Shown here one piece after another: positions 1 through 36,739 of a stretch of 64,000 nt of DNA. Every line of letters begins with the position of its first letter. Position 1 is the first letter of the stretch. The translations under genes and the position numbers were made by a program. The notes under the pieces are model-generated. The model saw nothing but the letters and a program-made list of their open reading frames with translations. It did no database searches and was not told where the DNA came from. This DNA is from a virus (Duplodnaviria; Caudoviricetes), in IMG/VR virus record IMGVR_UViG_3300037067_015270, positions 1 through 64,000 of that record. One strand, 5' to 3'.

Positions 1-1
1 C

Positions 2-3000
2 ATCAATTCCGGTCGCACCGATTGAACCAGACGCTCCCTGAACACCTGTAGCACCGGATGCACCAGATGCTCCGTCAATACCAGTTGCACCGATTGAACC
101 AGACGCTCCCTGAACACCTGTAGCACCGGATGCGCCAGATGCTCCGTCAATACCAGTTGCACCAATGCCGCTAGCACCTTGTACACCTGTAGCACCAGAA
201 GCGCCACTAGCACCATCAATTCCAGTTGCGCCGGATGCTCCGGACGCTCCATCAATTCCTGTAGCACCAGTTAAACCAGACGCACCCTGAACGCCTGTTG
301 CACCAGAAGCACCGCTGGCTCCATCAATTCCAGTCGCACCAATTGAACCAGAAGCACCTTGCACACCAGTTGCACCAGAAGCACCAGATGCTCCATCAAT
401 ACCGATTAAACCAGACGCTCCCTGAACACCTGTTGCACCAGAAGCGCCGGATGCTCCATCGATACCAGTAGCACCATCAACACCTATAACTCCTGTTGCA
501 CCGATTTCACCAGTAGCACCAATTGAACCAGATGCTCCCTGAACACCTGTAGCACCAGATGCTCCGGATGCTCCGTCAATTCCCGTTGCACCTATACCAG
601 ACGCTCCCTGAACGCCTGTTGCACCAGAAGCACCAGACGCTCCATCGACACCGGTAGCTCCGGTTAAACCTGTTGCACCAGTTAAACCAGACGCCCCTTG
701 CACGCCTGTTGCACCAGAAGCGCCACTAGCGCCATCGATTCCAGTAGATCCTTGAACACCTGTTGCACCAGAAGCACCAGACGCACCATCAATTCCAGTA
801 GCACCAGTGGCACCAGTGTGACCAGTAGCACCACTAGCACCATCAATTCCAGTAGCACCAGTCGCACCAGTTAAACCAATAGGACCAGACGCACCGCCAG
901 TTTCACCCTGAATACCAGTAGCACCAGTGAATCCCGTGGCACCAGACGCCCCGTCAATTCCAGTTGCACCTATTCCGGAAGCACCTTGCACACCTGTTGC
1001 ACCAGATGCACCACTAGCACCGGTATGGCCTGTTGCACCTGTTGCACCGTATACTTGTGGATATTCAACGAATTTGATCTGACCGATAATAGCGTACCAA
1101 TACGCATCGCTATACCATATCGCATAATATGGATAAGTACATGCAGTAACGTCAATTCTGTAATATCGATACGCTACGCCATTGTTAAACGTAAAATAAG
1201 GAGTCCAAACATTTACTGCAGCAGGTGGTGCAATACCTGTTCTTGTATCAAGAATATCCCAGTTAATATCATCATTAGATCCAGACAACGTCCAATCACT
1301 TGGTAGTGCAGTATTAAGGTTTCTCGCATAGAATGCGTATTTATTTATGACCTTGTGATGACCATCACCGTAATCATATTCAATCCACATTGGGATAGCA
1401 AACGGATCGCCGGGAGACCAAGTGGGATCGCCACTGTTAATTTGCACACCCCAACCATTGGTTCGTGATCCACTCTGATCAAATGCGTACCAGCCGTGCA
1501 AAGTAACATTTGTAACTTCATGGTAAATCACGCCCTCTGAACTCACCGTCACGACATTTGGCGATGGAGTAACAAGTGACGTCATAGCAGCCGTGCTATA
1601 ATTGGTGCCTGGATTAAAGTAGCCATCTGCTATTCCTAATCCAGTTGCACCCGAAGCACCAGATGCGCCAGACGCTCCGCTAATACCTGTAGCGCCAGTA
1701 TAACCAGAAGCACCATCTATTCCCGTTGCACCAGTTGACCCGACAGGACCAGAAGCACCACCAGTCTCACCTTGGATACCTGTAGCACCAGTATAACCAG
1801 TAGCACCCTCTACGCCAGTAGAGCCAGTTGCACCAGATAAACCGATAGTACCCGCAACACCTGAAGCGCCAGATGCACCAGATGCACCAGATGCACCAGA
1901 ATATCCGCTAATACCAGAAGCACCAGTTAAACCAGTAGCACCATCAGCACCAGTGGATCCGGTTGCACCCGAAGGACCAGAAGCACCACCAGTTGGACCT
2001 TGGACGCCTGTAGCACCTGTAAATCCCGTAGCACCTGTCGCACCAGACGCTCCATCAACACCTATAAAGCCAGAAGCACCATTAATACCTGTAGCGCCGG
2101 TCAAACCAGAAGAACCCTGAACGCCTGTAGCGCCGGTTGGACCTGCTATACCTGTTGATCCTGTTGATCCAACAGGACCAGAAGCACCACCAGTTTCGCC
2201 CTGAATGCCTGTAGCACCTGTAAACCCTGTGGCTCCCGACGCACCAGACGCACCAGATGCACCTTTAGCACCGGATGCTCCCTGCACACCAGTAGCACCA
2301 GAAGCGCCGGTTATACCCTGTACACCAGAAGCACCAATACCAGAAGACCCCTGCACACCAGTTGAACCGGTTGCTCCGGAAGGACCGGAAGCACCACCAG
2401 TTGGGCCTTGGATACCTGTAGCACCTGTAAATCCTGTGGCTCCTGATGCACCAAGACCAGTAGCACCAATTGAGCCAGACGCACCAGTTAAACCAGTAGC
2501 ACCGGTCGCACCCTTTAATCCAGTTGCACCAGTTCCAGTTGCACCAGTCAAGCCAGTAGCACCAACCGCACCTGTCGAGCCAGTTGCACCGGAAGGACCA
2601 GAAGCACCACCGGTTTCACCCTGTATTCCTGTTGCACCTGTGAGTCCTGTAGCTCCTGACGCGCCTCGTATGCCTGTTGCACCAGTTAATCCTGTAGCAC
2701 CAGTCGATCCATCAGGACCAGAAGCACCACCAGTTGGACCCTGGATGCCTGTAGCACCTGTATAACCAGAAGCACCAGAAGCACCTCGTATACCAGTAGC
2801 ACCAAAAATACCCGTTGATCCTGTTGATCCAGCTATACCAGTTGATCCAGCTATGCCGGTTGATCCACCTGGGCCTGATGCTCCACCAGTTTCACCCTGT
2901 GGACCTGTCGAGCCCGTAAAACCAGTGGCACCGGAAGAACCTGTGGCACCAGCCATTCCAGGATTACCAGTCGGGCCAGTAGATCCAGTCGAACCACCAA

Positions 3001-4522
3001 CACCTGTTGCTCCGGGTTCTCCACCACTTGGTCCAGTTGCACCAGTACCAGTTGCACCGGTTAAACCTGTAGCACCGGTTAAGCCAGTAGCACCGGTTGC
3101 ACCTATACCTGTTGCACCAGAAGCACCAGAGGCTCCGGGCACACCATCAATACCAGTGGCACCTATACCACTAGAACCTTGAACACCGGTTGCACCAGAA
3201 GCACCGGGAGGCCCAGAAGCACCGCCGGTCTCACCTTGAATTCCAGTGGCACCAGTATAACCCGTGGCACCTGTAGTACCTTCAACACCTATAACACCAG
3301 ATGCTCCGGCAATTCCAGTAGCACCAGTTAAACCCGTTGCACCAGATGCACCAGATGCTCCTCGTATTCCCGTTGCACCGGTTAAACCAGTAGCACCACT
3401 AATACCAGTAGCACCAGTCGAGCCTGACGGGCCAGAAGCACCACCAGTTTCACCTTGGATACCTGTAGAACCAGTTAAACCCGTAGCACCCGAAGCACCT
3501 CGTATTCCTGTTGCACCAAAGAAGCCAGTTGCACCGGCGATACCTGTTGAACCGGTTGCCCCAGAAGGGCCCGAAGAACCACCAGTCGGGCCTTGAATAC
3601 CTGTAGAACCAGTATAGCCAGTAGCACCTGTAGCACCAGTAGGTCCTGTAGAACCAGTAGCACCATATACTTGTGGATACTCAATAAACTTAACTTGCCC
3701 AATAACAGCATACCAATATGCATCACTGAACCACACCGCATAATATGGATAAGTGCAGGCAGTAACGTCAATTCTATAATATCGATAAGCTACACCATTA
3801 CTAAATGTGAAATAAGGAGTCCAAACACCTATTGATGCTGGTGGATCTACTCCAACCCTCGTATCAAGTATAGTCCAAGTTGAACCGTCGTTAGACCCAG
3901 ATAATGTCCAATCTCTGGGTAATGAAGTGTTAAGCATCCTCGCATAGAATGCATATTTGTTGATAATCTTCTTCTGGCCGTCGCTAAAATCATATACAAT
4001 CCACATTGGGATGGCGAAAGGATCACCAGGAACCCAAGTAGGATCACCACTATTGATTTGAACACCCCAGCCATATTCACGTGATACACTCTGATCGAAA
4101 GCGTACCAACCATTCAAATAGGTATCAGTAACATCTCTATATATTACTCCAATAGAGCTCACTACCACAGCATCTGGCGCTGGCGTAGTCGCCGACGTCA
4201 TCGCGGCTGTGCAAGTTATAACTCCTGGGTTATAATAACCGTCTGCTGCACCTGGGCCGGTCGCACCCAACCCCGAAGACCCTTGCACACCAGTAGCGCC
4301 AGATGCTCCTGATGCTCCATCAATTCCAGTAGCGCCTGGACCAGTCGCACCTATTGAGCCAGAAGCTCCTTGTGTTCCTGTAGCACCAGATGCACCACTA
4401 GCACCCGATGCACCAATCGGACCAGTCGAACCTGTTGCACCAGTTGCACCGGAACCGGTGGCACCAATCGGACCAGTTGGGCCGGTTGTGCCAGGTATTA
4501 GTATAATATTGGTAGTAAACAT
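2..4522 (-). CDS. Collagen-like fibre protein with two discoidin (F5/8-type C)-like domains; 3' end runs off the window (>1500 aa)
   Basis: ATG at 4522 ([23 protein letters not shown]...). The same frame still reads G-A-T-G-I-D at positions 19-2. Long G-X-Y (GAT/GAS/GPT) tracts are interrupted by two ~200-aa globular domains (about 3660-4250 and 1050-1630) homologous to those in the 2060-aa neighbour. Missing from the ORF track, presumably because no stop codon lies in the window. Confidence 0.85.
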
Positions 4523-4617
4523 GCTGTACCTTTATAGGATGCTCTTTATCTTCGATTACAGAATGTACTAAAACCAATGTAGAAATCTAAAAATTATTTA
4601 CAAATTAGATAGACGTT

Positions 4618-7600
4618 CTATGTCTCTGCGGTCAATATGCCATCCGTGAATGTCAACATCCTTGTTGGACTACCACCGCTTGAATCTGAGACATAATAGG
4701 TCTTAGTGCCAGATAATCCACCAGTTGGACCTGTAGCACCAGTTGGACCTGTAGCACCAACAGGTCCGGATGCACCACCAGTATCTCCCTGTGGACCAGT
4801 TGCACCAGATGCACCGCTAGCACCATCAATTCCAGTAGCGCCGGTTAAGCCAGTTGCCCCAGAAGCTCCATCAACACCTGTTGCACCAGAAGCTCCATCG
4901 ATCCCTATAGGACCAGTAGCACCTGAAGCACCATCAATCCCTGTTGCACCAGTTGATCCGACAGGTCCTGATGCACCACCAGTATCACCTTGGATGCCAG
5001 TTGCACCAGTTAAACCAGTAGCTCCATCAATTCCTGTGGCACCGGTAAAACCAGTAGCGCCAGATGCACCGCTAGCCCCATCAATCCCTGTAGATCCGAT
5101 TAAGCCAGTAGCACCAGTAGCCCCGGACGCTCCATCAATTCCAGTTGCCCCGGTTAAGCCAGTAGCACCAGAAGCGCCGCTAGCTCCATATGGACCAGAA
5201 GCACCACCAGTTTCACCCTGGATGCCGGTTGCACCAGTGAATCCTGTAGCACCAGATGCTCCGTCGATTCCGGTTGCACCGGTTAAGCCAGTATCACCAG
5301 TGAATCCAGTGAATCCTGTAGCACCAGATGCTCCGTCGATTCCGGTTGCACCGGTTAAGCCAGTACCAGTTGCACCGGTTAAACCCGTTGCTCCTGAAGC
5401 CCCATCAACACCAGTGGCACCAGAAGCACCACTAGCTCCGTCAATTCCAGTCGCACCAGTGCCCGTGGCACCAGTAAGACCGGTGGAACCAGTAAGACCG
5501 GTATAACCAGTGAAACCGGTAGCGCCTGTTAAGCCAGTACCGGTAGCACCAATTGCACCAGACGCTCCCTGAACGCCCGTCGCACCAGAAGCACCGCTAG
5601 CTCCATCAATCCCAGTGGCTCCGGACGCTCCGGTTAAACCTGAAGCTCCATCAATTCCGGTCGCACCAGAAGCTCCGGATGCTCCATCAATACCAGTCGC
5701 ACCAGTTAAACCAGACGCACCTTGAACACCTGTAGCACCAGAAGCTCCGGATGCTCCATCAATGCCGGTCGCGCCAGTTAAACCAGACGCACCAGTTAAA
5801 CCAGATGCCCCCTGGATACCTGTAGCCCCAGACGCACCAGTATCACCAGTAGCACCAACTGGACCACCGTAAGGACCAGACGCACCCGTTAAACCCGTTG
5901 AACCAGTTAAACCTGTTGCACCCACGCCTGTCGAACCCGTAGGACCCGTAGCACCTATACCACTAGCACCAGCAGAGCCACTAGCGCCAGCAGAGCCAGT
6001 AGCACCGGAAGCACCAGAGGCTCCAGAAGCACCATTTATAGCGAGCCCGGTTGCACCAGTAGAGCCACCGACACCCGTTGAACCGGTAGCCCCGGTAGGA
6101 CCACCAGCAGGGCCAGTAGCACCCGAGGCACCGATGACGCTTACTCCTGTGGCACCAGTGGAACCTGCAGCCCCAGCAGTACCCGTAGCACCAGACGCAC
6201 CAAGACCGGTTGCTCCAATAGGACCACCACTTGGACCAGTAGCACCTGCAATACCTGTCGACCCAGTCGAACCAGCAGTACCAGTCAAACCGGTAGCACC
6301 AGTATATCCTATACCTGTTGCACCTGTCGCACCACCAGCTCCTGTTGTACCAGCTATACCAGTTGAGCCCGTCGAACCTGTCGGGCCAGAGGCACCTCCT
6401 GTCGGGCCGGTCGCACCAGCAGGACCACTAGGGCCAGTAGCTCCATCACCAAGTGGGCCAGATGCGCCAGTAGCACCAGTGGGACCAATGGGACCTGACG
6501 CACCGCCTGTATCACCTTGCAAGCCAGTAGCACCGGATGCTCCAATACCTGTGGCACCAGTTAGACCAATGCCTGTTGAACCGGTAGCACCAATAGGACC
6601 ACCGGCAGGACCTGTAGCACCAGTTAGGCCAATGCCTGTTGAACCTGTGGAACCTGTTGGACCACCAGAAGGACCAGTTGCACCAGATAAACCAGTAGCA
6701 CCAGTAGAACCGGTGAGGCCAGTGCCAGTAGCACCTCTTGGACCGCTAATACCAGTAGCACCAGTAGCGCCAACAGGACCGCCAGAAGGACCTGTGGCAC
6801 CTGTTTCTCCCGTAGCACCAGAAGCACCAAGGCCGGTCGCTCCAACGGGGCCGACAGGTCCGGTAGGGCCCTCAGAACCAGTTGAACCAGTAGCACCAGT
6901 CGGGCCACCACTAGGGCCGGTTGCACCTACTACACCAGCTGGGCCAGTTGCACCGTAAACGCCAGTTGAAGACCAAGACAAGTTTCTTAATCCATCAGTA
7001 ACTAAAACTTGTCCGATTGTTCCGTCTATATTCGGGAACTTCAAATTACTAATAATGACGTTCTTACCAGTGCCCCAAGCTGCAAGTAATAAATCTTGAT
7101 TTGTAGCCGAGTGTATCGAGTCGGTTTGTAGCCCATTAACATCGCTATATGTTAAGCCGGAACTGTCGGTTAAACGTCCGTTCGTAGTAGCAAAAGGAAT
7201 TCTATTTGGCGTTAATTTTGTCCCATCGTTTAAAACAAATCCCTTCCTGGCACCATCAGTCGTAATAGTAAAATAAAGGTCGTCAACTTTGAATTCAGTA
7301 ACACCTGGTTCCGGAACAGCTAGGACATCGCCAGTAGTTAGTTTAAATGGTCCTTTTCCAGCCTCAGAAGAGCCAGCTGGGATGTGTAGTCTTGCTGTCG
7401 GATTGTATTCTCCGATACCGACTTGTTCACCGTCAATTATGGTACCACCATCTCTGATCAGTGTCGCAACGTTATAAAAGTTTGTTAAGCGATAGGCATC
7501 ATAAATCGGTACTCCGGCACTGTCTGTTAAAGTAACAGTGCCAAGCCATCTATGCCCCTTATAAACACCAGACGCGGTATAAACTGGCACGCCATCTAGT

Positions 7601-13892: not shown

Positions 13893-13928
13893 CCTGTAGC
13901 CACCTGGAAACAAGCAACGCGACAATAA
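13893..13928 (-). CRISPR. orphan degenerate CRISPR repeat
   Basis: CCTGTAGCCACCTGGAAAC matches array repeat CCTGTAGTCACCTGGAAAC at 18/19 positions. Confidence 0.75.
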
Positions 13929-13951
13929 TCTCCTTATTCTATATACTGTGG

Positions 13952-14479
13952 CTAAGCCATTTGCGGCCTTCTTTTCTTGAGCAGATCTCGTAAGTGATCG
14001 TTTTCGGCTTCGAGTTGTTTGATTCTTTCCATTAGTTCGTCAATAATAGCACTCATTCGTGCCTTTTCGCGACGAGCTACAGCATATGGATCTTCTCGTT
14101 TCTTTGGTGTTGTCGGCTGAGCGTTTTCAGCTTTGCTTGCTCTATTCTTGGCCTCATTATCGTCTAAGACCCTTTGTAACATTTGATATAACTTACCATT
14201 TGCCCATTGTTCCTCGTCCGGGAAATGGTCTAGAACAAGCTTCAATTCATAGAATGTTGCACAAAGGTCGTCGACGTATTCGTCAAGAATACTGAGCAAC
14301 TTATCGTCGTCGAACATGTTGTGATCGCTTCGAAAATCCTGATCATGGTAGACCTTCGTGAGCAACGTAATACGATGGTAAGCGTTACTGCCGCTCTGCT
14401 GTCGAAGTTCCTTGGCTTCCAACAATAAGCTTTTGTATGTCTTCGCGGACTCTTGATTCGTCTGTTTTGTCGATTTCAT
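13952..14479 (-). CDS. hypothetical coiled-coil protein downstream of CRISPR array 1
   Basis: 175-aa ORF with GGAG RBS. Confidence 0.7.
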   Translation of the reverse strand: MKSTKQTNQESAKTYKSLLLEAKELRQQSGSNAYHRITLLTKVYHDQDFRSDHNMFDDDKLLSILDEYVDDLCATFYELKLVLDHFPDEEQWANGKLYQMLQRVLDDNEAKNRASKAENAQPTTPKKREDPYAVARREKARMSAIIDELMERIKQLEAENDHLRDLLKKRRPQMA

Positions 14480-14630
14480 TAATAGTTCTCCTCAATCGTT
14501 TGTGGAAACCAGATAAATGGTAACATTCTCTACTACAATACTTCTGTTTGCCAGTCAATGGCATCTTACATATTGGACACAATTTACCTGAACGGGCAGC
14601 CATTTCTTCTGGCTCATATTCTGTAGTCAC
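14385..14630 (-). CDS. possible small Zn-ribbon protein
   Basis: CPIC...KYCSREC motif, but it overlaps the next gene by ~95 nt and its GTG start lies in a repeat fragment. Confidence 0.35.
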   Translation of the reverse strand: MTTEYEPEEMAARSGKLCPICKMPLTGKQKYCSRECYHLSGFHKRLRRTINEIDKTDESRVREDIQKLIVGSQGTSTAERQ

Positions 14631-14633
14631 CTG

Positions 14634-15145
14634 CCTGTAGTCACCTGGAAACGAACGCTATTTAACATTTCGCGTGTTTCTCGTCGTGTCCTGTAGTCAC
14701 CTGGGAACGAACGCTATTTAACATTCTAGCAGCCGAACAGAAATCCTGTAATCACCTGGGAACGAACGCAAATCGACACTGCTCTGTAGTCGATATTCAA
14801 TATTGACCAAGACCCCGAATTGCTGTATGGGAATAATCCCTGTAGTCACCTGGAAACGAACGCTATTTAACTTCAACCGGAAAACCGCAAGCGTTTTCGG
14901 CCTGTAGTCACCTGGAAACGAACGCTATTTAACATTTCAAAAAGACGACAGCGGTTTTTCCCGACCCTGTAGTCACCTGGAAACGAACGCTATTTAACAT
15001 TTGTCCTCTGGGAACGAACGCTATTTAACATTTCGCGTGTTTCTCGTTGTGTCCTGTAGTCACCTGGAAATGAACGCTATTTAACATTTGTTGCATCGCT
15101 CGTGTTTCTCCTGTAGTCACCTGGAAACGAACGCTATTTAACATT
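14634..15145 (-). CRISPR. CRISPR array 1 (36-nt repeat; 8 full-length copies, one degenerate, plus fragments)
   Basis: Plus-strand repeat CCTGTAGTCACCTGGAAACGAACGCTATTTAACATT at 14634, 14690, 14745 (degenerate), 14839, 14901, 14966, 15053 and 15110, with partial copies at ~14784 and ~15008. Clean spacers are 19-29 nt. The array starts 11 nt after the stop codon of the 401-aa gene. Confidence 0.95.
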
Positions 15146-15156
15146 ACGCTGATGGG

Positions 15157-16362
15157 TTATCCAGCCATCCTCTTACGCTTACACTCGCCGACACGCCGAA
15201 CAACAACATCAATATCGACCTTGTTGCAAGCCTTTTGAATCAGCGAACTCATTTGTTGCCAATCCCATCGAGTTGATTCCATATCGCAATCACGTACACG
15301 ACCGATTTTTTCCATGCATCGGTCGTCGCGTGTATCGCCAACAGGCTCAAATACCACAAGCCGACCTATACCTGCAAGACGGAGCCGCCTGACCATTTCG
15401 TTGGCGAGATGGATATTCCACGTCTTGACGAAATCTCGCCATCGCCGCGTCAACTTCTCTCGGCTACTGATCGCGACTTTCCGCTTCCTTTTGCCAGCAT
15501 TACAGACACGCTGGATTGTTAGAGACTTGCGAGTATAACCAATATCGTTACCACGGCGCAAACGAGTACTCGTTCTGCCATTAATGCGAAACAAAATCGG
15601 ACGTGCGAATCCGCCAGACAAGAAAGCCGTCTTATTCTTGTCGATTGGTAGCTTTACCTTTGGGATAGAATGGCAAATCTGAGCATACCATTTGCCGTCG
15701 CGTTCGAGTAAATCGACGCCCTTGATATCCCATTCTTTGGCAGCAATCTTCCAAAGCATATCACGAATGGAATGAAGACGATAATCTTTGGTCTTGATTT
15801 TGAAGACCATCACGGTATCATCTAGACACGCCTGTAACTTCCAATCACCATCGTCTGCGTCAGGTATGATGATGTGGCAGTCGCTTGTGTAAAACGGAAT
15901 TATACCGCGTTTAGAAGATTGTGGCAATTCACCAAGTCCGGATAGAACAATCATCCATCGAGGATAGGCCGACTTGATGCCGGACTTCCTGATCAGATTC
16001 TTCATCGCCTTGTTGATTGCCAATTGAATCTGCTTCGTGTCGTAGTCGGGATGCGATTCGGCGATAATGGCACGAAGCCGGTCGTTCATTTCAGGGCTAC
16101 ATGGATCGACAGGACATCGGGTACGGGGACCGACCCGACTGGCCGGGTCATATAACCATTGTCTATCGTGCGCCATCCATTCTCGGACGACCAAATGGTT
16201 GCCTGCTTCATAATGAAGACGGAGCCAAGTAGCTGCGAAATCATTCGTGCACTGCTGGATTTTGGTGGCGAGAGTAGACAGAAGCTTCTTTTCTGCTGCG
16301 AAGTCTCCGTCGCTACCAATTAAGTCAACCCTTTTGTTCTTGACGATTCGTTGTAATCCCAT
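15157..16362 (-). CDS. cas12f: Cas12f-like (type V-F/TnpB family) effector, predicted nuclease-dead, 401 aa
   Basis: Motifs IIPFY, LWKIAAKEWDIKGVDLL..GKWYAQICH, KTAFLSGG (RuvC-I Asp replaced by S249), GRLVVFEP, WDWQQM..LIQKAC. Ends before the Zn finger and RuvC-III. Flanked by an array and a tracrRNA-like gene. Confidence 0.85.
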   Translation of the reverse strand: MGLQRIVKNKRVDLIGSDGDFAAEKKLLSTLATKIQQCTNDFAATWLRLHYEAGNHLVVREWMAHDRQWLYDPASRVGPRTRCPVDPCSPEMNDRLRAIIAESHPDYDTKQIQLAINKAMKNLIRKSGIKSAYPRWMIVLSGLGELPQSSKRGIIPFYTSDCHIIIPDADDGDWKLQACLDDTVMVFKIKTKDYRLHSIRDMLWKIAAKEWDIKGVDLLERDGKWYAQICHSIPKVKLPIDKNKTAFLSGGFARPILFRINGRTSTRLRRGNDIGYTRKSLTIQRVCNAGKRKRKVAISSREKLTRRWRDFVKTWNIHLANEMVRRLRLAGIGRLVVFEPVGDTRDDRCMEKIGRVRDCDMESTRWDWQQMSSLIQKACNKVDIDVVVRRVGECKRKRMAG

Positions 16363-16374
16363 CTAGCTCTCTCC

Positions 16375-16473
16375 AAAATAAAGGTGACTCTGGCGAGGGC
16401 TAACACGGTACGAAATGCCCGCAGCTATTCTCGCCTTCGAGACGTACAGGACGCCTCTGGTTGAGTCTTGTTT
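16375..16473 (-). ncRNA. tracrRNA-like RNA, copy 1
   Basis: One of three near-identical elements. Upstream -10 TACAAT (16477-16482), hairpin with a CCUGU loop, GGCGAG/CUCGCC stem, 3' AGUCACCU then a U-run. Both anti-repeat parts are complementary to the repeat 3' end AGGUGACUACAGG. Confidence 0.8.
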
Positions 16474-16508
16474 CATATTGTAGTACGAAAAAGGAATTGG
16501 TTAATTGC

Positions 16509-16704
16509 CCTGTAATCGTTGCACAACGCCCTGTAATCACCTGGGAACAAGCAGAAGAACGAGGCCCTGTAGTCACATGGGAACGAGAGGTACTCTCCAT
16601 TTTCGACTTTTATTCGTGTAAGGTTCAAGTTCTGTAGTCACCTTGGAACGAACGGTACTCTCTATTAGACTCGACAAGAACGTATCGATGCCGCTCCTGT
16701 AGTC
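16509..16704 (-). CRISPR. degenerate mini-array downstream of tracrRNA copy 2
   Basis: Repeat variants at 16509 (fragment), 16530, 16566, 16631 and 16696 (3' 9 nt only); two 29-nt spacers (16602-16630, 16667-16695). Confidence 0.75.
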
Positions 16705-16797
16705 AGGTGACTCTGGCGAGGGCTAACACGGTATGCTAGATCCGCAGCTATTCTCGCCTTCGAGACGTACAGGACGCCTCTGATTGAGTCTTGTTTC
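16667..16797 (-). ncRNA. tracrRNA copy 2 fused to a repeat end and spacer (natural sgRNA candidate)
   Basis: Minus strand reads ...CTCGCCAG-AGTC-ACCT-GACT-ACAGG-[29-nt spacer]; own GTGCTACAAT promoter at 16801-16810. Confidence 0.7.
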
Positions 16798-16857
16798 ATA
16801 ATTGTAGCACGAGTTAACTTGCTGATATTCTTCCCGTCTGATACTTTCCGGAAACTT

Positions 16858-16989
16858 CCTATAATCACCTGGAAACGAGCGCTTGCTTGTGTGTTCGATG
16901 TCCTGTAGCCACCTGGGAACGAACGCTATTCTCCATCAGTTAAACAATTTACATTACGCTGGTAGGTCTATTTGGCCTGTAATCACCTA
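16858..16989 (-). CRISPR. degenerate repeats downstream of the 431-aa gene
   Basis: CCTATAATCACCTGGAAACG (16858), CCTGTAGCCACCTGGGAACGAACGCTATT (16902), CCTGTAATCACCTAG (16976), and a leader-like ACATTACGCTG at ~16951. Confidence 0.65.
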
Positions 16990-16992
16990 GTT

Positions 16993-18288
16993 CTATGCCG
17001 CTTTCAACTTCTTCTTCCGTTCACCAATCTTCCTGACCGTGACCTCGATACCAACAGCCTTGCAGGCTTGTTGTAATAAAAGCTGCATCTGATACCAGTC
17101 CCATCCGGTCGATTCCCTGAGTCCAGGAATCTTCCCAATTTTGGACAGGCATCTCGAATCACGCAAGTCCCCAGCGGGCTGATACACAACGACACGACCT
17201 GTCTTGGATTTGATACACCGTTGCACAACTTCTGCGGCCCATCGGCTATTGGTCGTCTTGACCATATCACGCCATTTCATCCTAATCTTATCGCGCCACT
17301 GTATCGACTTCCTACCGTGTCCTTTCCTGGCACTCGATGCGTATTTGTACGATTCATTCTTACCAAAACGTTGGTTAGTGAGCGACTGCCGTACACGTTC
17401 AATCTGCTTGCCATCGAGGAGGCTCATTAAGGTCCTATCACCGATTCGCAGCATCATACCATTGTGGTATCCCGCAGACACGAAAGCCGTCTTCATGCCG
17501 TCTAACACTGGCTTCTCGACATTTGTAATCTTGTAGCAAATATGGGCATACCACCGACCGTCACGAAGAACGAGTGAAGAAGTGTTAAAAATCCACTCTC
17601 CGGACGCAATCTTCCACAAAGCCTCGCGGATGGTCTTCAAATTGCGACCACCTGTTCGCATCTTGAAGACCATTGGACGTAACGTACGCGTTCCAATCCT
17701 CTTCTCGAAGCGAACTTCCAATTTCCATGGGTCTTTGATGGTCTTCGGAATTATGACGCTGGCGTTCGAAGTATAGAACGGAACCGGCGCTTGTTTTTGT
17801 GCTTGTGGGAATTCACCAAATCCGGAAAGAATCGTCATCCATCGCTTGTAAGCCGATTTCGACGATGGCATCTGAGTGAGAGTCTTCGCGGCAATTTGTG
17901 TGACGATACCGATTGGCTTCGTTCCGAGATTACCATGTTCCTCAGTCAGCAACTTGTAAAGCTGTCTCGACATTGCTGGATCACACGGATTGACAGGGCA
18001 TTTAATACGCGGCGGTGCTCCCTTCTTGCCTTTATAGGCTTTCGCCCATTCCTTATCCTTCTCGATCCATTCTCGAACGGCCAGATGATTTCCGGCTTGC
18101 TGATGCAACCGTAGCCATTGATTGGCGTAATCGTTCACAATCTGTTGCATTTGGATTGCTAATCCGGCGAGACATTTTTTATCTGCTGCGAAGTTGTCAT
18201 CACTACCGGTCAATTCAACGCGAATGATCTTCGTGATGCCATCGGGCTTCTTTTTACGTGGTTTCTTCGCTTCAACTAATTCACTCAT
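16993..18288 (-). CDS. cas12f: Cas12f-like effector, predicted nuclease-dead, 431 aa
   Basis: Colinear with Cas12f1-type motifs: IASGEW...WYAHICY, LDGMKTAFVSAG (D to S271), DGKQIERVRQ..KYASSARKGHGRK, KTTNSRWAAEVV, GRVVVYQP (no RuvC-II Glu), WDWYQMQ..ACKAVGIEV. No CxxC Zn finger or third catalytic Asp. Confidence 0.9.
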   Translation of the reverse strand: MSELVEAKKPRKKKPDGITKIIRVELTGSDDNFAADKKCLAGLAIQMQQIVNDYANQWLRLHQQAGNHLAVREWIEKDKEWAKAYKGKKGAPPRIKCPVNPCDPAMSRQLYKLLTEEHGNLGTKPIGIVTQIAAKTLTQMPSSKSAYKRWMTILSGFGEFPQAQKQAPVPFYTSNASVIIPKTIKDPWKLEVRFEKRIGTRTLRPMVFKMRTGGRNLKTIREALWKIASGEWIFNTSSLVLRDGRWYAHICYKITNVEKPVLDGMKTAFVSAGYHNGMMLRIGDRTLMSLLDGKQIERVRQSLTNQRFGKNESYKYASSARKGHGRKSIQWRDKIRMKWRDMVKTTNSRWAAEVVQRCIKSKTGRVVVYQPAGDLRDSRCLSKIGKIPGLRESTGWDWYQMQLLLQQACKAVGIEVTVRKIGERKKKLKAA

Positions 18289-18333
18289 TTCGTCTCCAAA
18301 ATCACTTTGGACGGTTATCCTCTATAATCATAT

Positions 18334-18428
18334 AAATAAAAGGTGACTCTGGCGAGGGCTAACACGGTATGCTAGATCCGCAGCTATTCTCGCCTTCGAG
18401 ACGTACAGGACGCCTCTGATTGAGTCTT
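18334..18428 (-). ncRNA. tracrRNA-like RNA, copy 3
   Basis: Same element as copies 1 and 2; TGTGCTACAAT extended -10 at 18433-18443; ends AGTCACCTTTTATTT. Confidence 0.8.
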
Positions 18429-18486
18429 CATAATTGTAGCACAAAAAAGGAATTGGTTAACTGGAATTCAATCTATTCATCGAGCC

Positions 18487-18990
18487 TCTGCAGTCACCTG
18501 GGAACGAACGCCATTTACAACCTTTCCGAGAACGAATCGACGATGCCCTGTAGTCCTGTAGTTACCTGGAACGAACACTATTCGGCTTACTTGATACTCG
18601 ATTGGGCAAGCCCTGTAGTCACCTGAGAACGAACACTATTTAACATTCTACTCACCTGTAGTCGCCTGGGAACGAGTGCTATTCAATATTTGGAATAGTT
18701 ACATTTGTAACGGTCTTAGCCCTGTAGTCACCTGGGAACGAGTGCTATTCAACATTTTGAACTAAAATGAACGATTTAGACAGTCTCCTGTAGTCACCTG
18801 GGAACGAGTGCTATTCAACATTCGCCGTGTTCTCCTGTAGTCACCTGGGAACGAGTGCTATTCAACATTCGCCTTTGCAGTTTAGCGCCCCTGTAGTCAC
18901 CTGGGAACGAGTGCTATTCAACATTCGATATCCGCATGACCCTTAAGTACGGCACCTGTAGTCACCTGGGAACGAGTGCTATTCAACATT
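18487..18990 (-). CRISPR. CRISPR array 2 (36-nt repeat; 7 good and 2-3 degenerate copies)
   Basis: CCTGTAGTCACCTGGGAACGAGTGCTATTCAACATT at 18721, 18787, 18834, 18890 and 18955, with variants at 18655, 18612, 18555 and 18487. Spacers are 29, 20, 11, 30, 30 and 7 nt from the leader end. Degeneration increases leftward, so the leader is on the right. Confidence 0.95.
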
Positions 18991-19095
18991 ACGCCAATGG
19001 GTGGTGTGTTGAATAGCACTCTGATTTGTTATAGCACAACAACGATGCTTATTAATTTAACAGGATATTAATTCTGTCCGGTGTCGTGCTATAAT
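18991..19095. promoter_or_regulatory. array-2 leader with anti-repeat and divergent extended -10 promoters
   Basis: TGTTGAATAGCACTC (19007-19021) is the reverse complement of repeat nt 20-34. Minus-strand TGTGCTATAAC at ~19027-19037; plus-strand GTGCTATAAT at 19086-19095. Confidence 0.65.
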
Positions 19096-30709: not shown

Positions 30710-31117
30710 TTAAACCCTAACTCGGATCACATTGACGTCGTGACACCCGCCCTTCAACACAATCTTCGCACCGCTACCACCATCGTCGGTGATTTCGCAG
30801 ATCGAATTGACGAAATCAAGGACCTCTTTCTCGAAATCAATATCAGTGTTCATCTTGCCATTGCGAAGTGGTACAACGAAATGCGGATGCCCAGGATGGA
30901 GTGTGCCCATGAGTGAAGCCACAATATCACGGACTTCATTCGGTGGAAGATTACCTGTTTCCACATACATTACTGTTCTGATTGGAACGCTCATATTATC
31001 GGCTTCTGCGGACCGAGATAACGCCTGAGTCGCTATCACTGGCGTTTCAACCTTCGATTCCTCATCCTTTATCGCTGGCGGCACACTGCAGCCACACTCA
31101 CATTTGCACTTATCCAT
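30710..31117 (-). CDS. hypothetical protein
   Basis: 135-aa ORF with GGAG RBS. Confidence 0.65.
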   Translation of the reverse strand: MDKCKCECGCSVPPAIKDEESKVETPVIATQALSRSAEADNMSVPIRTVMYVETGNLPPNEVRDIVASLMGTLHPGHPHFVVPLRNGKMNTDIDFEKEVLDFVNSICEITDDGGSGAKIVLKGGCHDVNVIRVRV

Positions 31118-31287
31118 GATCTACTCCATGTTTAGAAAATTCTCTGTAGTCGCCTAGTTATAAAATACATAATGTATTTTACTATCAGAGCTCAACAAAT
31201 CAACGCATAGGTGCTATTATCGCAACTACAACACAATTCCCAATCAATCTTGTTATTCCATTAGCTTCTGAAGAAGAGTGTCAGTAT

Positions 31288-31596
31288 ATGGAATTACTTA
31301 TAGCAGATTTAGTTGGGCGTGAACGCCCAGGAGAACAAAAAGACGATTGTGAACACACAGCGTTTCTTGACAAGGCATATTATGAAAATCCAGATGAAAC
31401 GCAACGCGCAAGACTTCTAATCAATGGTGAGGAAGTCAGAAGGGGCACTACAGAACAAATGAAGGATGCTTTCAAATTACAAGTTGGCATCAACCAGAAG
31501 GCAAATTTTGCTGTTCAAGAATGGCAAAGGCGTCCGCTATCTGGTAAACCGGCTGGTTTTGTTACTATATTATCTAGATCGGTACGGGCAGTTTAG
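31288..31596 (+). CDS. hypothetical protein
   Basis: 102-aa ORF. Confidence 0.6.
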   Translation: MELLIADLVGRERPGEQKDDCEHTAFLDKAYYENPDETQRARLLINGEEVRRGTTEQMKDAFKLQVGINQKANFAVQEWQRRPLSGKPAGFVTILSRSVRAV

Positions 31597-34394
31597 GTGA
31601 TTGTGAACGACGTAGCGCCAAATCCGTAAGTTGCGGTGCTACCATTCCAAATATATCCGCCAATGTAATATATTCCTGGTGGCACTCCGGTCGTATCCCA
31701 ATTCCAACTAGCAGTTCCATTTACTGCCGTAATCTCGCCAACAGAAATCCAATATTCAGTCCCGCTTGTGTTTGGTTGGGTTGCGTAACACAGATTAACT
31801 GTATATCCAGACTGAATACCATATGCTGTCCAATTTACTGGGACAATTGCACCAGCAACATAACTCCCAGAAAGCGGATTAGTCATAGTTAAAGAAATAT
31901 CTGGCACAGGATTACCAGCTGTCTGCGAATGCCAGACATTAGATATGCCTCCGGATGGTGCCACACCTTGCAGACCGACCCAGGCTGTTACCCACTGGCC
32001 ACTTCCAGCCTTTCTTGCTACTGCCGGATTCGTTTGGTCACCAAGACCTCTGTGTGCTAGACTAGGATTATTAACTATATATTCTGATGTTGTAGCAATA
32101 CCAGATGCATTATATTGCCGAGCAACAATTCCTATATTATTGCTATCAATCGGATCATCTGGTTGATGATATGACTGCCAAACAATTACAAAATTACCAT
32201 CTCGATCACAACCGACATCGGGATATAAATGAGAATATGTTGCGTCAAGGTTTACTACAAATTCTGACCCAGCTTTTACACCAGCCGCAGTATAACGTTG
32301 GCCATAAATATTATGGGTGCCATATACGTGCCATGTTACTACAAATGTACCACTTGGAGCGAATGAGACTCTCGAATGCATATAATAAGTGCCACCACCG
32401 CCACCAGATGTAGTATTAACTTGAAATTCGGAGCCGAGTTTTGTGCCTGAATAATTAAGCCGTTGACCATATACATTCTGAGTTGCTGTAGAAGGTCCTT
32501 CGTAAGTATAAACTACAACATAATCACCATTATCTGCTACGTCGATATCAGTAGTTCTGTGTTGTCCGTCTCCACCGGTGCTGATTTTGAAGTTTGTAGA
32601 TCCAACTTTAACACCATCGGCGCTAAATCTCTGACCATAAATATCACTATCAGTTATGCTAATATCTAGGTATAGCTCGCTCCACACGACCATGAAAGCT
32701 TTTGTAGTCGGGTTTATTGCTATCGCTGGATCATAATAATATGAATTTGCAAGTGCATTAACTCTGAATTGATCTCCTAACGGAACACCAGTTGCACTAT
32801 ACATTCTGGCATGAATACCTCTCTCAAAATCCAGGTCTGGCCCACTCCAGGTTATAATAAAAGTACCATCGTCTGCTATGGCTACATCTGGTTCTATTGA
32901 ATATGGATCGCCATATGACGGTACGGTAAATTGCGCTGTTGTAGGATTACCATCTGATGCGAACACCTGCGCCATTACGACCGGTGTAGCGGGAACATCG
33001 TAATTTGCCCAAGTAATCACAAATCTGCCATCAACTGCATCAGCAACACGAGGAGTGCGATAATCTCCGGTGATAAGCTCCGGCGATGATGATGGCGATG
33101 GCGACAACGAAGGCGACAGAGAGGGCGACAGAGAGGGCGACAGTAATGAAGCTGATGGTGAAGGCGACAATGACGGCGATAACGAAGGCGAAGGCGATAG
33201 AGAGGGTGACGCTGAAATAGATGGTGATAATATCGACGGTGATGGCGACAATGATGGTGATAATATCGACAACGACGGTGATGGAGACTGTGATAGCGAT
33301 GGCGATAATGACGGAGACAACAGAGAATGTGAAGGAGATAATGATAATGAAGGCGACAACGATAACGATGGAGAATATGACGCTGATGGCGAGCTACTCA
33401 AAGATGGTGACAATATTGATGGCGATTGCGACCTCGACAGCCATGAAGATACGGATGGTGTCGGTGATAATGATACTGACAACGAAGGCGACAATGAATG
33501 TGATAACGACAATGATGGCGAGTGCGACGGTGATAAACTGGGAGATACTGACAAACTAGGAGACGGTGAAAGCGACACAGATAGTGATAGGCTAAGAGAT
33601 GGAGACGGTGATAGACTGAGAGATGGCGACAAACTAAGAGATGGCGACAATGACGGCGACAAACTAAGAGATGGCGACAATGACGGCGAAAGTGATGGAG
33701 ATAAGCACGGTAATTGTGAAGGTAAAAAATCTGGCCCCCATACATCTACAAACCAAAAAGATTCTTTATCACATACCGGTACTACTGTTCCATCTGCTAA
33801 AACCCATTGAAAAACTAACTCTGTACCTACACTTTCTGGATCTATAAAACGCGGCCCCAATGTTACAGGCGCAGATTCGATACCGGATACAGCATTGTCA
33901 AAGTGATACTTGAATTGGTCTATTGGCCCAGTACCACAATTGAAGCTGGTTTGAAAATAACATGTAGATTGTGAGTTGTTCTCCGTAATTATATATCCGA
34001 CATATCCAAGAGAGCTTGGTTCAATAATTTGTCGCTCAATAGTGCAAATTCCACGCCTATACACATTCTTCGTGTCTCCGTCAACACGACCATAATCTAT
34101 TCCAAGATTTACCTCCACAACAGAAATAATAGTGACTGTGAGATTACTATATCTATTACTAATTATTTGCTCAGCGGCATCAGCATCTGATGCCTGCACT
34201 CTAACAACACCACACGCCCCATTAACACAAAACCTAACATCCCACGTTCGCATCTCGCCCCAAACAATAGGCATTTTGGTAATAGTAGTATAATCTATCA
34301 CACTTACGCCATCTACATCTATTGTCTCCCATTGAGTCCAATATAATGTTCCATAGTCATCTCTGAAAAATATCGACCCTGTGGCTGGCGTCAT
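31593..34394 (-). CDS. 933-aa surface/virion protein: Ser-Pro-Leu linker, repeated 'EFxVN..P.VA...G.FVVTW' beta-propeller-like units, C-terminal Ig-like domain
   Basis: ~210-aa SPSL low-complexity tract; about 6 repeats of F.VN..Q/Y.P.VA...G.FV..W; terminal WNWDTTGVPPGIYYIGGY. Confidence 0.75.
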   Translation of the reverse strand: MTPATGSIFFRDDYGTLYWTQWETIDVDGVSVIDYTTITKMPIVWGEMRTWDVRFCVNGACGVVRVQASDADAAEQIISNRYSNLTVTIISVVEVNLGIDYGRVDGDTKNVYRRGICTIERQIIEPSSLGYVGYIITENNSQSTCYFQTSFNCGTGPIDQFKYHFDNAVSGIESAPVTLGPRFIDPESVGTELVFQWVLADGTVVPVCDKESFWFVDVWGPDFLPSQLPCLSPSLSPSLSPSLSLSPSLSPSLSLSPSLSLSPSPSLSLSLSVSLSPSPSLSVSPSLSPSHSPSLSLSHSLSPSLSVSLSPTPSVSSWLSRSQSPSILSPSLSSSPSASYSPSLSLSPSLSLSPSHSLLSPSLSPSLSQSPSPSLSILSPSLSPSPSILSPSISASPSLSPSPSLSPSLSPSPSASLLSPSLSPSLSPSLSPSPSSSPELITGDYRTPRVADAVDGRFVITWANYDVPATPVVMAQVFASDGNPTTAQFTVPSYGDPYSIEPDVAIADDGTFIITWSGPDLDFERGIHARMYSATGVPLGDQFRVNALANSYYYDPAIAINPTTKAFMVVWSELYLDISITDSDIYGQRFSADGVKVGSTNFKISTGGDGQHRTTDIDVADNGDYVVVYTYEGPSTATQNVYGQRLNYSGTKLGSEFQVNTTSGGGGGTYYMHSRVSFAPSGTFVVTWHVYGTHNIYGQRYTAAGVKAGSEFVVNLDATYSHLYPDVGCDRDGNFVIVWQSYHQPDDPIDSNNIGIVARQYNASGIATTSEYIVNNPSLAHRGLGDQTNPAVARKAGSGQWVTAWVGLQGVAPSGGISNVWHSQTAGNPVPDISLTMTNPLSGSYVAGAIVPVNWTAYGIQSGYTVNLCYATQPNTSGTEYWISVGEITAVNGTASWNWDTTGVPPGIYYIGGYIWNGSTATYGFGATSFTIT

Positions 34395-35906: not shown

Positions 35907-36471
35907 ATCTAGTTCTTACCTGAATTTTAAACTTATTCAACCAAGTGGATATTGAATCTTTTGAGACACCTGCAATTTTCCCACACATAGCCAAAGTTTG
36001 ACCTAATTCCACATAATGTTTGTACAACCATTCATAATTATTACATGGATTAGTTGTATGTTTAGATCTCCTAGGCATTGTTGGTATATTGTATTTACGC
36101 AGACGCTTGGTAACAGTCCTCCTGTTTAGGTGTGTTATTCTAGATAAAGTGCGTATACCATAGAGTTGATAATAATGTCTCCACCATTCTGCACAATCCC
36201 AACCGGGTTCTAGTTTTATATCTGGAACAATATAAACACACTTAGGTACTGGGCTTGGACGCTTGGTTCTAATTAGATCAGTGCCATCAGTTCTTGTTTT
36301 TAGCATCCTGATATATCTAGAGCCAAACGACAAGACTTGCGACAAGTCATTAGTACTGAAGAATTTATAGCGTAGAAAGAAATTTTTTAGCTGCTCTGGG
36401 TCATATTTATTAAGCAGCTTAAACTCATCACGCATTATCTGGCAATGGTCATCATTAACTAAACAGGGCAT
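35818..36471 (-). CDS. multi-HTH DNA-binding protein
   Basis: IRTLSRITHLNRRTVTKRLRKYNI and WLYKHYVELGQTLAMCGKIAGVSKDSISTWLNKFKI. Confidence 0.65.
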   Translation of the reverse strand: MPCLVNDDHCQIMRDEFKLLNKYDPEQLKNFFLRYKFFSTNDLSQVLSFGSRYIRMLKTRTDGTDLIRTKRPSPVPKCVYIVPDIKLEPGWDCAEWWRHYYQLYGIRTLSRITHLNRRTVTKRLRKYNIPTMPRRSKHTTNPCNNYEWLYKHYVELGQTLAMCGKIAGVSKDSISTWLNKFKIQVRTRYAPKVSSSTRTTWDDTTVGEVTSVPTRTD

Positions 36472-36670
36472 CGTTCAACTGCTGGTCGAAAGACTCTTTC
36501 TTGACATGTTTAGGAAGGCCCTTCGTTTTCGTCGAGGCGAAATCTTTGGCTGCCTTGTCAGTCATACCCTTAGCGGCTTTCTTGACTGCTGGAGATGCCT
36601 TTCCGCCCTCTTCCTTGTGTTTATGCACCATACCCATAAATTGTTGCTGTGCTTTACTTACTGCTGGCAT
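36455..36670 (-). CDS. DUF3008-like small protein
   Basis: MPAVSKAQQ.FMG...M..K..KDFASTKTKGLP. Confidence 0.65.
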   Translation of the reverse strand: MPAVSKAQQQFMGMVHKHKEEGGKASPAVKKAAKGMTDKAAKDFASTKTKGLPKHVKKESFDQQLNDALFS

Positions 36671-36739
36671 AGAAATCTCCTTTTCGTATAATTTTGATTA
36701 ACAGAAATCCTGCAATCACCTAGTTATAAATACAATATC

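What the first reader, a model, noticed from the sequence alone, without database searches (positions are those of the whole stretch)
36700..36735. Remote mini-repeat 20 kb from the locus carries the same seed as an array spacer
Seen: intergenic AACAGAAATCCTGCAATCACCT (36700-36721) matches the spacer2/repeat3 junction of array 1, AACAGAAATCCTGTAATCACCT (14736-14757), at 21/22 positions. On the minus strand it reads TGTATTTATAACT-AGGTGATTGCAGG-ATTTCTGTT. That is a recurrent upstream motif, then only the 13 tracr-pairing nucleotides (both changes keep pairing through G-U), then the same first 9 guide nucleotides. It lies in the 5' region of the DUF3008-like gene. Inference: a stand-alone minimal crRNA, or an mRNA leader used as a guide, expressed at a different infection stage. 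This would also imply that only about 9 nt of guide matter.
Basis: partly seen in the sequence, partly recalled or inferred. Interest (0 to 1): 0.8.

Follow-up and report, generated by a model that had tools for sequence, protein, structure and literature searches.

The report
Promoter-fused minimal crRNA handle in phage
A 13-base copy of the end of this huge phage's own CRISPR repeat sits directly behind a phage promoter in front of a small gene. It is one of at least ten such "promoter plus handle" units in the phage family, and they probably let ordinary transcripts dock onto the phage's non-cutting Cas12f and its helper RNA.

Summary
36700-36721 matches 14736-14757 at 21/22 positions, with 0 expected by chance.

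The site is not a lone oddity. The "recurrent upstream motif" is a promoter-like box common in this phage family. In 6 of 165 copies across four genomes (0.02 expected), and in three further contigs, the box is followed at fixed spacing by the 13 nt of the CRISPR repeat that pair with the tracrRNA. The window holds two such units (36709-36734 and 31143-31169).

The handle tracks the tracrRNA. A relative whose tracr tail carries C-to-U has G-to-A in its arrays and in all five of its remote handles. One relative has a stand-alone version: box, handle, about 14-19 nt, then a strong terminator. Four units, including this one, are mRNA leaders.

The units are not conserved at orthologous genes. In one case the "guide" is simply the native leader.

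The effectors are Cas12f homologs without a working RuvC site.

So "minimal crRNA / leader used as guide" is plausible as a class, but expression and binding are untested. The claim that about 9 nt of guide suffice is not supported, because seed sharing is unique to this pair.

Earlier notes of this scan report scattered mini-guides in other phages. I did not check those notes.

The parts
36722..36734 (-). Promoter-like box (reads TGTATTTATAACT on the minus strand), one copy of the family-wide GTATTT(T)A-type box
   Evidence: The same box lies directly before the second remote handle at 31156-31169. The box class is 37-58% intergenic where only 7-10% of the DNA is non-coding, and most intergenic copies lie within 100 nt upstream of a same-strand start codon. 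The sigma-70 scan finds nothing on this strand here.
36709..36721 (-). 13-nt minimal repeat ('handle', AGGTGATTGCAGG), equal to the tracr-pairing 3' end of the CRISPR repeat with two transitions
   Evidence: pattern scans. (complementary to tracr tail AGUCACCU and hairpin loop CCUGU; tail duplex -10.8 against -13.1 kcal/mol for the canonical handle).
36679..36708 (-). Sequence in guide position, which is also the 5' leader of the DUF3008-like mRNA. The first 9 nt (36708-36700) are identical to the start of the array spacer at 14744-14736. The Shine-Dalgarno sequence is at 36682-36677 and the ATG at 36670-36668.
   Evidence: The leader has no unusual structure (z -0.18).
36455..36670 (-). DUF3008-like gene (71 aa) downstream of the unit
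   Evidence: An identical gene and intergenic region occur in a second sample (L064).
31143..31169 (-). Sister unit: box plus handle (two mismatches, neither wobble-compatible), 25 nt before the ATG of a 135-aa gene (30710-31117)
14726..14757 (-). Array-1 unit that shares the 22-mer: 5'-truncated repeat ending in the handle variant with C7T, followed by a 19-nt spacer
13893..18994 (-). CRISPR locus: three irregular arrays (spacers 7-30 nt), further solitary handles (13905, 14632, 16988), two effector genes (15157-16362 and 16993-18288), and three tracrRNA copies (about 16380-16504, 16705-16818, 18339-18460)

Best explanation
The element at 36709-36734 is one copy of a dispersed 'promoter plus minimal crRNA handle' unit used by this huge-phage family together with its nuclease-dead Cas12f and tracrRNA. 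A phage promoter-like box places the start of the DUF3008-like mRNA at, or a few bases into, the 13 nt that are the only part of the CRISPR repeat able to pair with the tracrRNA (8 bp with its 3' tail, 5 bp with a hairpin loop). The leader can therefore dock on tracrRNA and dCas12f without any processing, with the next 14-20 nt held in the guide position.

Shown: the unit is a non-random, recurrent architecture; it covaries with the tracrRNA; and stand-alone and leader forms both exist.

Inferred: the transcription start, binding to the effector, and the outcome. My preferred outcome is regulatory rather than immune. In a relative the 'guide' is simply the native leader, so the captured RNA most likely marks its own gene for control. 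That could work by occluding the leader, or by guiding the complex back to its own promoter-proximal DNA. The array unit at 14726-14757, probably a copy of this unit, would give a second RNA with the same 9-nt seed acting in trans.
For: (1) In four genomes, 6 of 165 boxes are followed at fixed spacing by a handle with at most 2 mismatches, against 0.02 expected. Further copies occur in L062, L115 and L118.
(2) The box behaves like a promoter: it is enriched 5-6 fold in intergenic DNA and mostly lies within 100 nt upstream of same-strand starts.
(3) Covariation: in G003 both tracr tails have C-to-U, most array repeats have G-to-A at handle position 5, and all five remote handles have A there. 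The window, G001 and L062 have the C/G state.
(4) Only the last 13 nt of the repeat are constant across arrays whose 5' parts differ or are truncated.
(5) L118 7784-7690 (-) is a complete small gene: box, handle, about 14-19 nt, then a 14-bp hairpin with a U-run (-31.8 kcal/mol, z -4.0).
(6) tracr copy 2 is naturally fused to a 9-nt remnant of the handle plus a spacer, so a very short handle is used within the locus itself.
(7) G002, which lacks both effector and tracr, has the orthologous promoter of the L062 unit without the handle.
(8) The effectors are Cas12f homologs (E about 1e-31 to AsCas12f structures). RuvC-I Asp is replaced and the C-terminal zinc finger and RuvC-III are missing.
Against: The site is absent from the orthologous DUF3008 upstream region in G001, G003 and six other relatives, so it is young or dispensable. 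The sister handle at 31155 has two mismatches that do not pair with the tracr (tail duplex -8.6 kcal/mol, within the range of shuffled handles). If the -10-like part of the box is the hexamer just before the handle, transcription would start about 5-6 nt inside the handle and leave only about 8-9 nt of it. No DNA target was found for any remote guide or array spacer. G002 has two solitary 13-mers although it lacks the system, so such motifs can persist without function.
Confidence: 0.5

Rival explanations
1. The leader is a regulated target only. The tracrRNA, with or without dCas12f, pairs with the handle in the mRNA leader and changes translation or stability of the downstream gene. The RNA never serves as a guide for DNA.
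For: Four of ten units sit 23-38 nt before a Shine-Dalgarno sequence and start codon. At other solitary handles (13905 in the window, 197831 in G001) the start codon lies within 10 nt of the handle, inside the segment the effector would hold. The sequence after the handle in L062 is the native leader also present in G002.
Against: The stand-alone unit with a terminator and the units with no ORF behind them, or antisense to genes (G003 14304, 3405, 12808; L115), have nothing to regulate in cis. In this site the ribosome-binding site is 27 nt past the handle, beyond a 20-nt guide segment.
Confidence: 0.17
2. The site is a DNA operator. The crRNA from the array unit at 14726-14757 binds promoter-proximal DNA of the DUF3008-like gene through its 9-nt seed and represses it, as CreR, CreA and tracr-L do with about 11 bp. 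The flanking handle similarity would be incidental to the promoter unit.
For: The 9-nt identity starts exactly at the guide's first base, with chance about 1e-3 or lower for 52 unit pairs. The same spacer also has a 10-nt match 156 nt upstream in the GNAT gene (36877-36868). The guide of the L118 stand-alone unit has a 10-nt match just upstream of its own box. Published dCas12f guides depend mainly on a short TAM-proximal seed, and one homolog needs only a 5'-G (PMC13472631).
Against: The motif next to the target would be the repeat end itself, so every crRNA would also bind its own array. The three candidate seed matches have no common flank (GG, AT, TT). The seed 9-mer occurs 6 times in the genome against 1.7 expected, which shows no clear enrichment. 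The idea does not explain the other nine or more units.
Confidence: 0.1
3. The site is a non-functional by-product. The handle-like sequence spread to promoters by recombination or gene conversion with the arrays, or as a small mobile cassette. It persists neutrally, and the 22-nt identity is a scar of such an event.
For: The window's arrays are visibly reshuffled, with spacers of 7-30 nt, truncated repeats and duplicated units. Units are not conserved at orthologous positions. One unit is flanked by a 9-nt direct repeat, like an insertion. G002 keeps solitary 13-mers without the system.
Against: The identical spacing to the box in all copies, the restriction to the 13 tracr-pairing nucleotides, the covariation with the tracr in G003, and the terminator-closed unit are hard to get from neutral scars.
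Confidence: 0.2

Closest known systems
crRNA-like regulatory RNAs from stand-alone repeats and mini-arrays (CreA/CreR; survey by Shmakov et al. 2023, bioRxiv 10.1101/2023.03.03.530964; Liu et al. 2023, bioRxiv 10.1101/2023.03.10.532045)
   Same: A repeat-derived sequence outside the array that would load a short or partially matching guide into the system's own effector, for regulation rather than cleavage.
   Different: The known cases are types I and V-A. They lie inside the cas locus, mostly have two repeat-like sequences, were detected with a 16-bp threshold, and target cas or toxin promoters. Here there is a single 13-nt handle that depends on a tracrRNA. It lies 18-22 kb from the locus, is fused to a promoter, often forms an mRNA leader, and belongs to a phage with a dead Cas12f.
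Nuclease-dead Cas12f systems (Hoffmann et al., Nature 2026, PMC13472631)
   Same: Cas12f homologs with C-terminal truncations that remove part of RuvC. The paper notes a CRISPR-array-associated dCas12f cluster thought to repress transcription, short guides (14-16 nt) and seed-dominated binding.
   Different: The characterised systems use single chimeric guide RNAs, have no tracrRNA and work with a sigma-E partner. Here there are clear tracrRNA genes, arrays and dispersed handles, and no sigma-like neighbour was detected. The paper describes no remote handles.
tracr-L natural single guide of Streptococcus pyogenes Cas9 (as summarised)
   Same: A non-canonical guide made from system RNA parts that represses a promoter through about 11 bp of pairing.
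   Different: It belongs to type II and is one fixed RNA that targets the cas9 promoter. It is not a dispersed promoter-fused handle.
RNA anti-CRISPRs (Racr, solitary repeat units in phages; Camara-Wilpert et al. 2023, PMC10651486)
   Same: Solitary repeat units encoded in phage genomes.
   Different: Racrs mimic the host's repeats to poison host Cas proteins (abstract). Here the handle matches the phage's own arrays and covaries with the phage's own tracrRNA.
Processing-independent crRNAs of type II-C arrays, with promoters inside each repeat (from my own memory, not checked here)
   Same: The 5' end of the guide RNA is set by transcription initiation rather than by processing.
   Different: There the promoter lies inside every full repeat of an array. 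Here a general phage promoter box is fused to a truncated repeat far from the array.

Membership tests
Type V-F CRISPR-Cas12f system (the system the handle belongs to) | Effector homologous to Cas12f | tested here: met
   The profile of 21 family members hits AsCas12f structures 8dzj, 8j12 and 7wju at E about 2e-31 over about 300 residues, and other Cas12f chains. The AF2 model has pLDDT 86.5.
Type V-F CRISPR-Cas12f system (the system the handle belongs to) | Intact RuvC catalytic triad (DNA cleavage) | tested here: not met
   The RuvC-I Asp column holds S, A or G. RuvC-II Glu is Gln in most members (Glu is kept in the 401-aa paralog). The proteins end before the zinc finger and RuvC-III.
Type V-F CRISPR-Cas12f system (the system the handle belongs to) | tracrRNA with an anti-repeat that pairs with the repeat | tested here: met
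   Three copies in the window are about 80 nt invariant with G001. The tail and loop are complementary to the last 13 nt of the repeat. There is a compensatory change in G003: tail C-to-U with repeat G-to-A.
Type V-F CRISPR-Cas12f system (the system the handle belongs to) | Adaptation genes (cas1, cas2, cas4) | not tested
   None was seen among the ORFs next to the locus, but the genome was not searched for them.
crRNA-like regulatory elements (CreR, CreA, mini-arrays) | Repeat-like sequence outside the array | tested here: met
crRNA-like regulatory elements (CreR, CreA, mini-arrays) | Located within the CRISPR-cas locus, with repeat similarity of 16 bp or more, usually as two repeats flanking a spacer | tested here: not met
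   The site is a single 13-nt handle 17.7 kb from the nearest array.
crRNA-like regulatory elements (CreR, CreA, mini-arrays) | Spacer partially complementary to a promoter of cas or cargo genes | tested here: inconclusive
   No match of the guide to the locus or elsewhere beyond itself. The 9-nt relation is an identity with another guide, which makes this site a possible target of that guide.
crRNA-like regulatory elements (CreR, CreA, mini-arrays) | RNA is expressed and bound by the effector | not testable with these tools
dCas12f-sigmaE RNA-guided transcription | Adjacent ECF sigma factor gene and a single chimeric guide RNA without tracrRNA | tested here: not met
   No Pfam or PHROG family was found for the neighbours of the locus. 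tracrRNA genes are present.
RNA anti-CRISPR (Racr) | The solitary repeat mimics the host's CRISPR repeat | tested here: not met
   The handle equals the phage's own repeat end and follows the phage's own tracr variant. The host is unknown.

The most novel reading that the evidence does not exclude
In this huge-phage family a 27-nt 'promoter plus 13-nt handle' cassette turns the 5' end of any transcript into a guide for a dead Cas12f-tracrRNA complex. Guides would then be made without arrays or processing, timed by a phage promoter class. Each tagged gene supplies the RNA that brings the repressor back to itself, and array-borne copies of the same seed act in trans. This would be a phage gene-regulation network built from CRISPR parts.
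Probability: 0.25. Interest if true: 0.85.

Novelty: new variant of a known kind. Interest (0 to 1): 0.65.

Why it matters
Three things follow if the handles are functional.

- crRNA-like regulatory RNAs extend to tracrRNA-dependent, nuclease-dead type V-F systems of phages, and to sites far from the cas locus.
- Guide production can be coupled to any promoter, with no array, leader or processing. An mRNA leader can then double as a guide or as a tag for RNA-guided control.
- Published surveys that require 16 bp or more of repeat similarity inside cas loci would miss such 13-nt handles, so the phenomenon may be under-counted. Earlier notes of this scan report scattered mini-guides in other phages.

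A natural 9-13-nt minimal handle is also useful information for designing compact Cas12f guides.

Tried and rejected
- Conservation of the exact 22-mer: no hit in viral or metagenome contigs.
- Conservation at the orthologous site: the GNAT/DUF3008 intergenic region of G001, G003, G002 and five metagenome relatives has only an AT-rich box and no handle. The same holds for the 135-aa gene. L064 is 100% identical to the window, so it is the same phage and uninformative.
- The record behind L062 could not be searched, and P0002 had no contig on record.
- Targets: no protospacer for any spacer or remote guide in the window's genome or in three related genomes. Two long spacers gave no hit in IMG/VR. 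No conserved target was found for the remote guide.
- No sigma-70-type promoter on the minus strand at the site.
- No Rfam family or tRNA in the window.
- The leader structure is not exceptional.
- Seed sharing as a general rule is rejected: no other remote unit shares 7 nt or more with an array spacer in G001, G003 or L062.
- The wobble argument is weakened: the sister site has C-A and A-C mismatches, and two transitions are both wobble-compatible one time in four by chance.
- The upstream box as a T4-type late promoter on the plus strand was considered and dropped. Only the minus-strand reading puts a gene start downstream at both window sites.
- The similarity of the remote guide to the G001 array spacer at 199384 (14 of 17 ungapped, 15 of 17 columns with one gap) is only borderline: score 22 against a null 95th percentile of 21.

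Full report
**Observation.** The window is the first 64 kb of a 122.5-kb virus record, estimated at about one third of a huge-phage genome. The 22-mer at 36700-36721 matches 14736-14757 with one mismatch and nothing else in the window; none is expected by chance. On the minus strand the site reads as follows:
- a 13-nt AT-rich box (36734-36722);
- the 13-nt "handle" AGGTGATTGCAGG (36721-36709);
- 9 nt (36708-36700) identical to the first 9 nt of a 19-nt array spacer;
- 29 nt of leader with a Shine-Dalgarno sequence;
- the ATG of a 71-aa DUF3008-like gene.

Its position in the gap between the GNAT gene and the DUF3008-like gene is confirmed.

**The system it belongs to.** Between 13.9 and 19.0 kb, all on the minus strand, lie these parts:
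- Two paralogous proteins of 401 and 431 aa, 44% identical to each other.
- Three irregular arrays of a 36-nt repeat, with spacers of 7 to 30 nt and several truncated repeats.
- Three copies of an RNA gene of about 90 nt with sigma-70-like promoters.

A profile of the protein family matches solved Cas12f structures at E about 1e-31. In the family alignment the RuvC-I aspartate is replaced, the RuvC-II glutamate is mostly glutamine, and the proteins stop before the zinc finger and RuvC-III. These are therefore nuclease-dead Cas12f homologs, a kind noted by Hoffmann et al. (PMC13472631).

The RNA gene folds into a hairpin with loop CCUGU, a second hairpin, and a tail AGUCACCU. Together the loop and tail are complementary to exactly the last 13 nt of the repeat. 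Across arrays the first 23 nt of the repeat vary or are truncated, but the last 13 nt stay constant.

**The upstream motif is a promoter-like box.** GTATTT(T)A-type boxes occur 19, 67, 45 and 34 times in the window's genome and in three related genomes fetched whole. Between 37% and 58% are intergenic, although only 7-10% of the DNA is non-coding. Most intergenic copies lie within 100 nt upstream of a start codon on the same strand. The orthologous promoter of the 135-aa gene carries the box in all three relatives.

**The composite unit recurs.** In the whole 122.5-kb record the array-derived handle pattern occurs outside the locus only twice, at 36721 and 31155. Both copies are preceded by the same box at the same spacing, and both lie before a gene. 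Other copies:
- The close relative L062 (effector 89% identical) has one, with a perfect handle, 33 nt before a 62-aa gene.
- G003 has five.
- A scan of IMG/VR for box plus handle found further copies in L115 and L118, besides chance hits in unrelated contigs.

In the four whole genomes, 6 of 165 boxes are followed by a handle, against 0.02 expected.

**Covariation.** In G003 both tracr copies have a U where the others have C in the tail. Most array repeats have the matching A at handle position 5, and all five remote handles carry that A. In the window, G001 and L062 the tail has C and the handles have G. This is a single evolutionary event, so it is suggestive rather than statistical. It does tie the remote handles to the tracrRNA, or at least to continued exchange with the arrays.

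**Forms of the unit.** Four of ten units, including both in the window, are followed within 23-38 nt by a Shine-Dalgarno sequence and an ORF. They would therefore be mRNA leaders. Others have no ORF behind them or lie antisense to genes.

One unit, L118 7784-7690 (-), is a complete small gene. It has the box, the handle, about 14-19 nt, and then a 14-bp hairpin followed by a U-run (-31.8 kcal/mol, z -4.0). The terminator scan missed this hairpin, probably because its loop is 9 nt.

Within the window's locus, tracr copy 2 runs directly into a 9-nt remnant of the handle and a spacer. A handle shorter than 13 nt is thus used naturally. If the box's -10-like hexamer is the one just before the handle, transcription would begin about 5-6 nt inside it and leave about this remnant. 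That start position is inferred, not shown.

**Turnover.** The unit is not conserved at orthologous genes. The DUF3008 and 135-aa gene promoters of relatives lack the handle.

The 62-aa gene of L062 has a 90% identical ortholog in G002, a 99%-complete genome that lacks both effector and tracr. There the box and the leader are present but the handle is not, and the sequence after the handle in L062 is the native leader. The "guides" of leader-type units are therefore not acquired foreign sequences. This points to regulation of the phage's own genes rather than immunity.

G001 instead carries a remote mini-array (a full repeat, about 31 nt, then a 13-nt handle) in the 3' region of the ortholog of the window's 135-aa gene. 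G003 has a remote array about 86 kb from its locus.

**The 9-nt identity.** With 2 remote units and 26 array units, an identical 9-nt start has a chance of about 1e-3 or less, so it is real. It is also unique: no other remote unit in G001, G003 or L062 shares 7 nt or more with an array spacer.

The matching array unit has a 5'-truncated repeat and an unusually short spacer, and it sits next to an aberrant 69-nt interval. This fits a recombination event between two handle-bearing units.

Three weak hints that a short seed may matter:
- The same spacer has a 10-nt match 156 nt upstream in the GNAT gene.
- A G001 array spacer resembles the remote guide over 17 nt, at borderline significance.
- The L118 stand-alone guide has a 10-nt match just upstream of its own box.

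The flanks of these matches share no motif, and the seed 9-mer is not clearly enriched.

**Mechanism.** I put the core claim at 0.5: the handle makes this leader a ligand of the tracrRNA and dCas12f. Among its consequences I favour control of the tagged gene itself, by leader occlusion or by return of the complex to its own DNA. I favour this over action on a distant target because the guide is native leader sequence.

Rivals are a purely RNA-level regulatory leader (0.17), a DNA operator for the array crRNA with the 9-nt seed (0.10), and a neutral recombination or cassette scar (0.20).

**Comparison with known systems.** The closest kinds are listed below.
- crRNA-like regulators from stand-alone repeats (CreR/CreA, Shmakov et al.). 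The unit works like these. It fails their operational definition on length, number of repeats and location, and it needs a tracrRNA.
- tracr-L of Cas9.
- dCas12f systems.
- Racr RNAs. The unit is unlike these because the repeat is the phage's own.

I found no description of promoter-fused 13-nt handles for Cas12f in the papers searched. Earlier unchecked notes of this scan report scattered handle-plus-guide units in other phages.

**Limits.** Every functional step rests on sequence comparison. The host, the PAM, the transcription starts and the timing of expression are unknown.

Noticed in passing
window 16690-16830 (-): tracrRNA copy 2 has no U-run. It continues directly into a 9-nt remnant of the repeat end and a 29-nt spacer, so it is a natural single-guide fusion.
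   Followed up: partly
G001 137404-137490 (-), in L027/L060: Remote mini-array (full repeat, about 31-nt spacer, 13-nt handle) about 60 kb from the G001 CRISPR locus. It sits in the convergent gap just after the ortholog of window gene 30710-31117.
   Followed up: partly
G003 about 123680-124050 (-): Remote array of about five repeats, about 86 kb from the G003 effector genes. G003 also has an extra array block at 31.7-33.8 kb.
   Followed up: no
L118 7745-7812 (-): The box-plus-handle cassette is flanked by a 9-nt direct repeat (GGCCTAGAT). This could be a target-site duplication, or a guide with a 10-nt match just upstream of its own promoter.
   Followed up: no
G002 16636 (+) and 43027 (-): A genome without effector or tracrRNA still has two solitary handle-like 13-mers. 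One is orthologous to the G001 mini-repeat at 197831, after a glycine-rich TPM-like gene. The other overlaps the stop codon of a dUTPase-like gene. They may be relics of a lost system.
   Followed up: partly
window 18547-18567; G001 197811-197831; several G003 units: In many units the last 8 nt of the handle (ACTACAGG) are duplicated in tandem right after the repeat.
   Followed up: no
window 14670-14689, 15033-15052, 15089-15109, 18823-18833: Array spacers that are near-duplicates of each other or overlap. All contain a common core around GAAACACG, as if several guides tile one target. One 13-nt match lies at 103989-104001 of the genome.
   Followed up: partly
window 36664-36692 (+): A 10/12 sigma-70-like promoter on the plus strand would start an RNA near 36699. 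That RNA would be antisense to the handle, so it would look like an anti-repeat. This may be chance: 3.5 such hits are expected per kb.
   Followed up: no
window 1-7000 (-) and 33060-33700: Very long collagen-like (Gly-X-Y) coding repeats fill the first 7 kb. A 933-aa protein (31593-34394, -) has a long Ser/Pro/Leu-rich stalk.
   Followed up: no
window 13893-13905 and 14620-14632 (-): Solitary handles at the edge of the locus lie 3-10 nt before likely start codons of the next genes. If the effector complex bound them, it would cover the ribosome-binding site.
   Followed up: no
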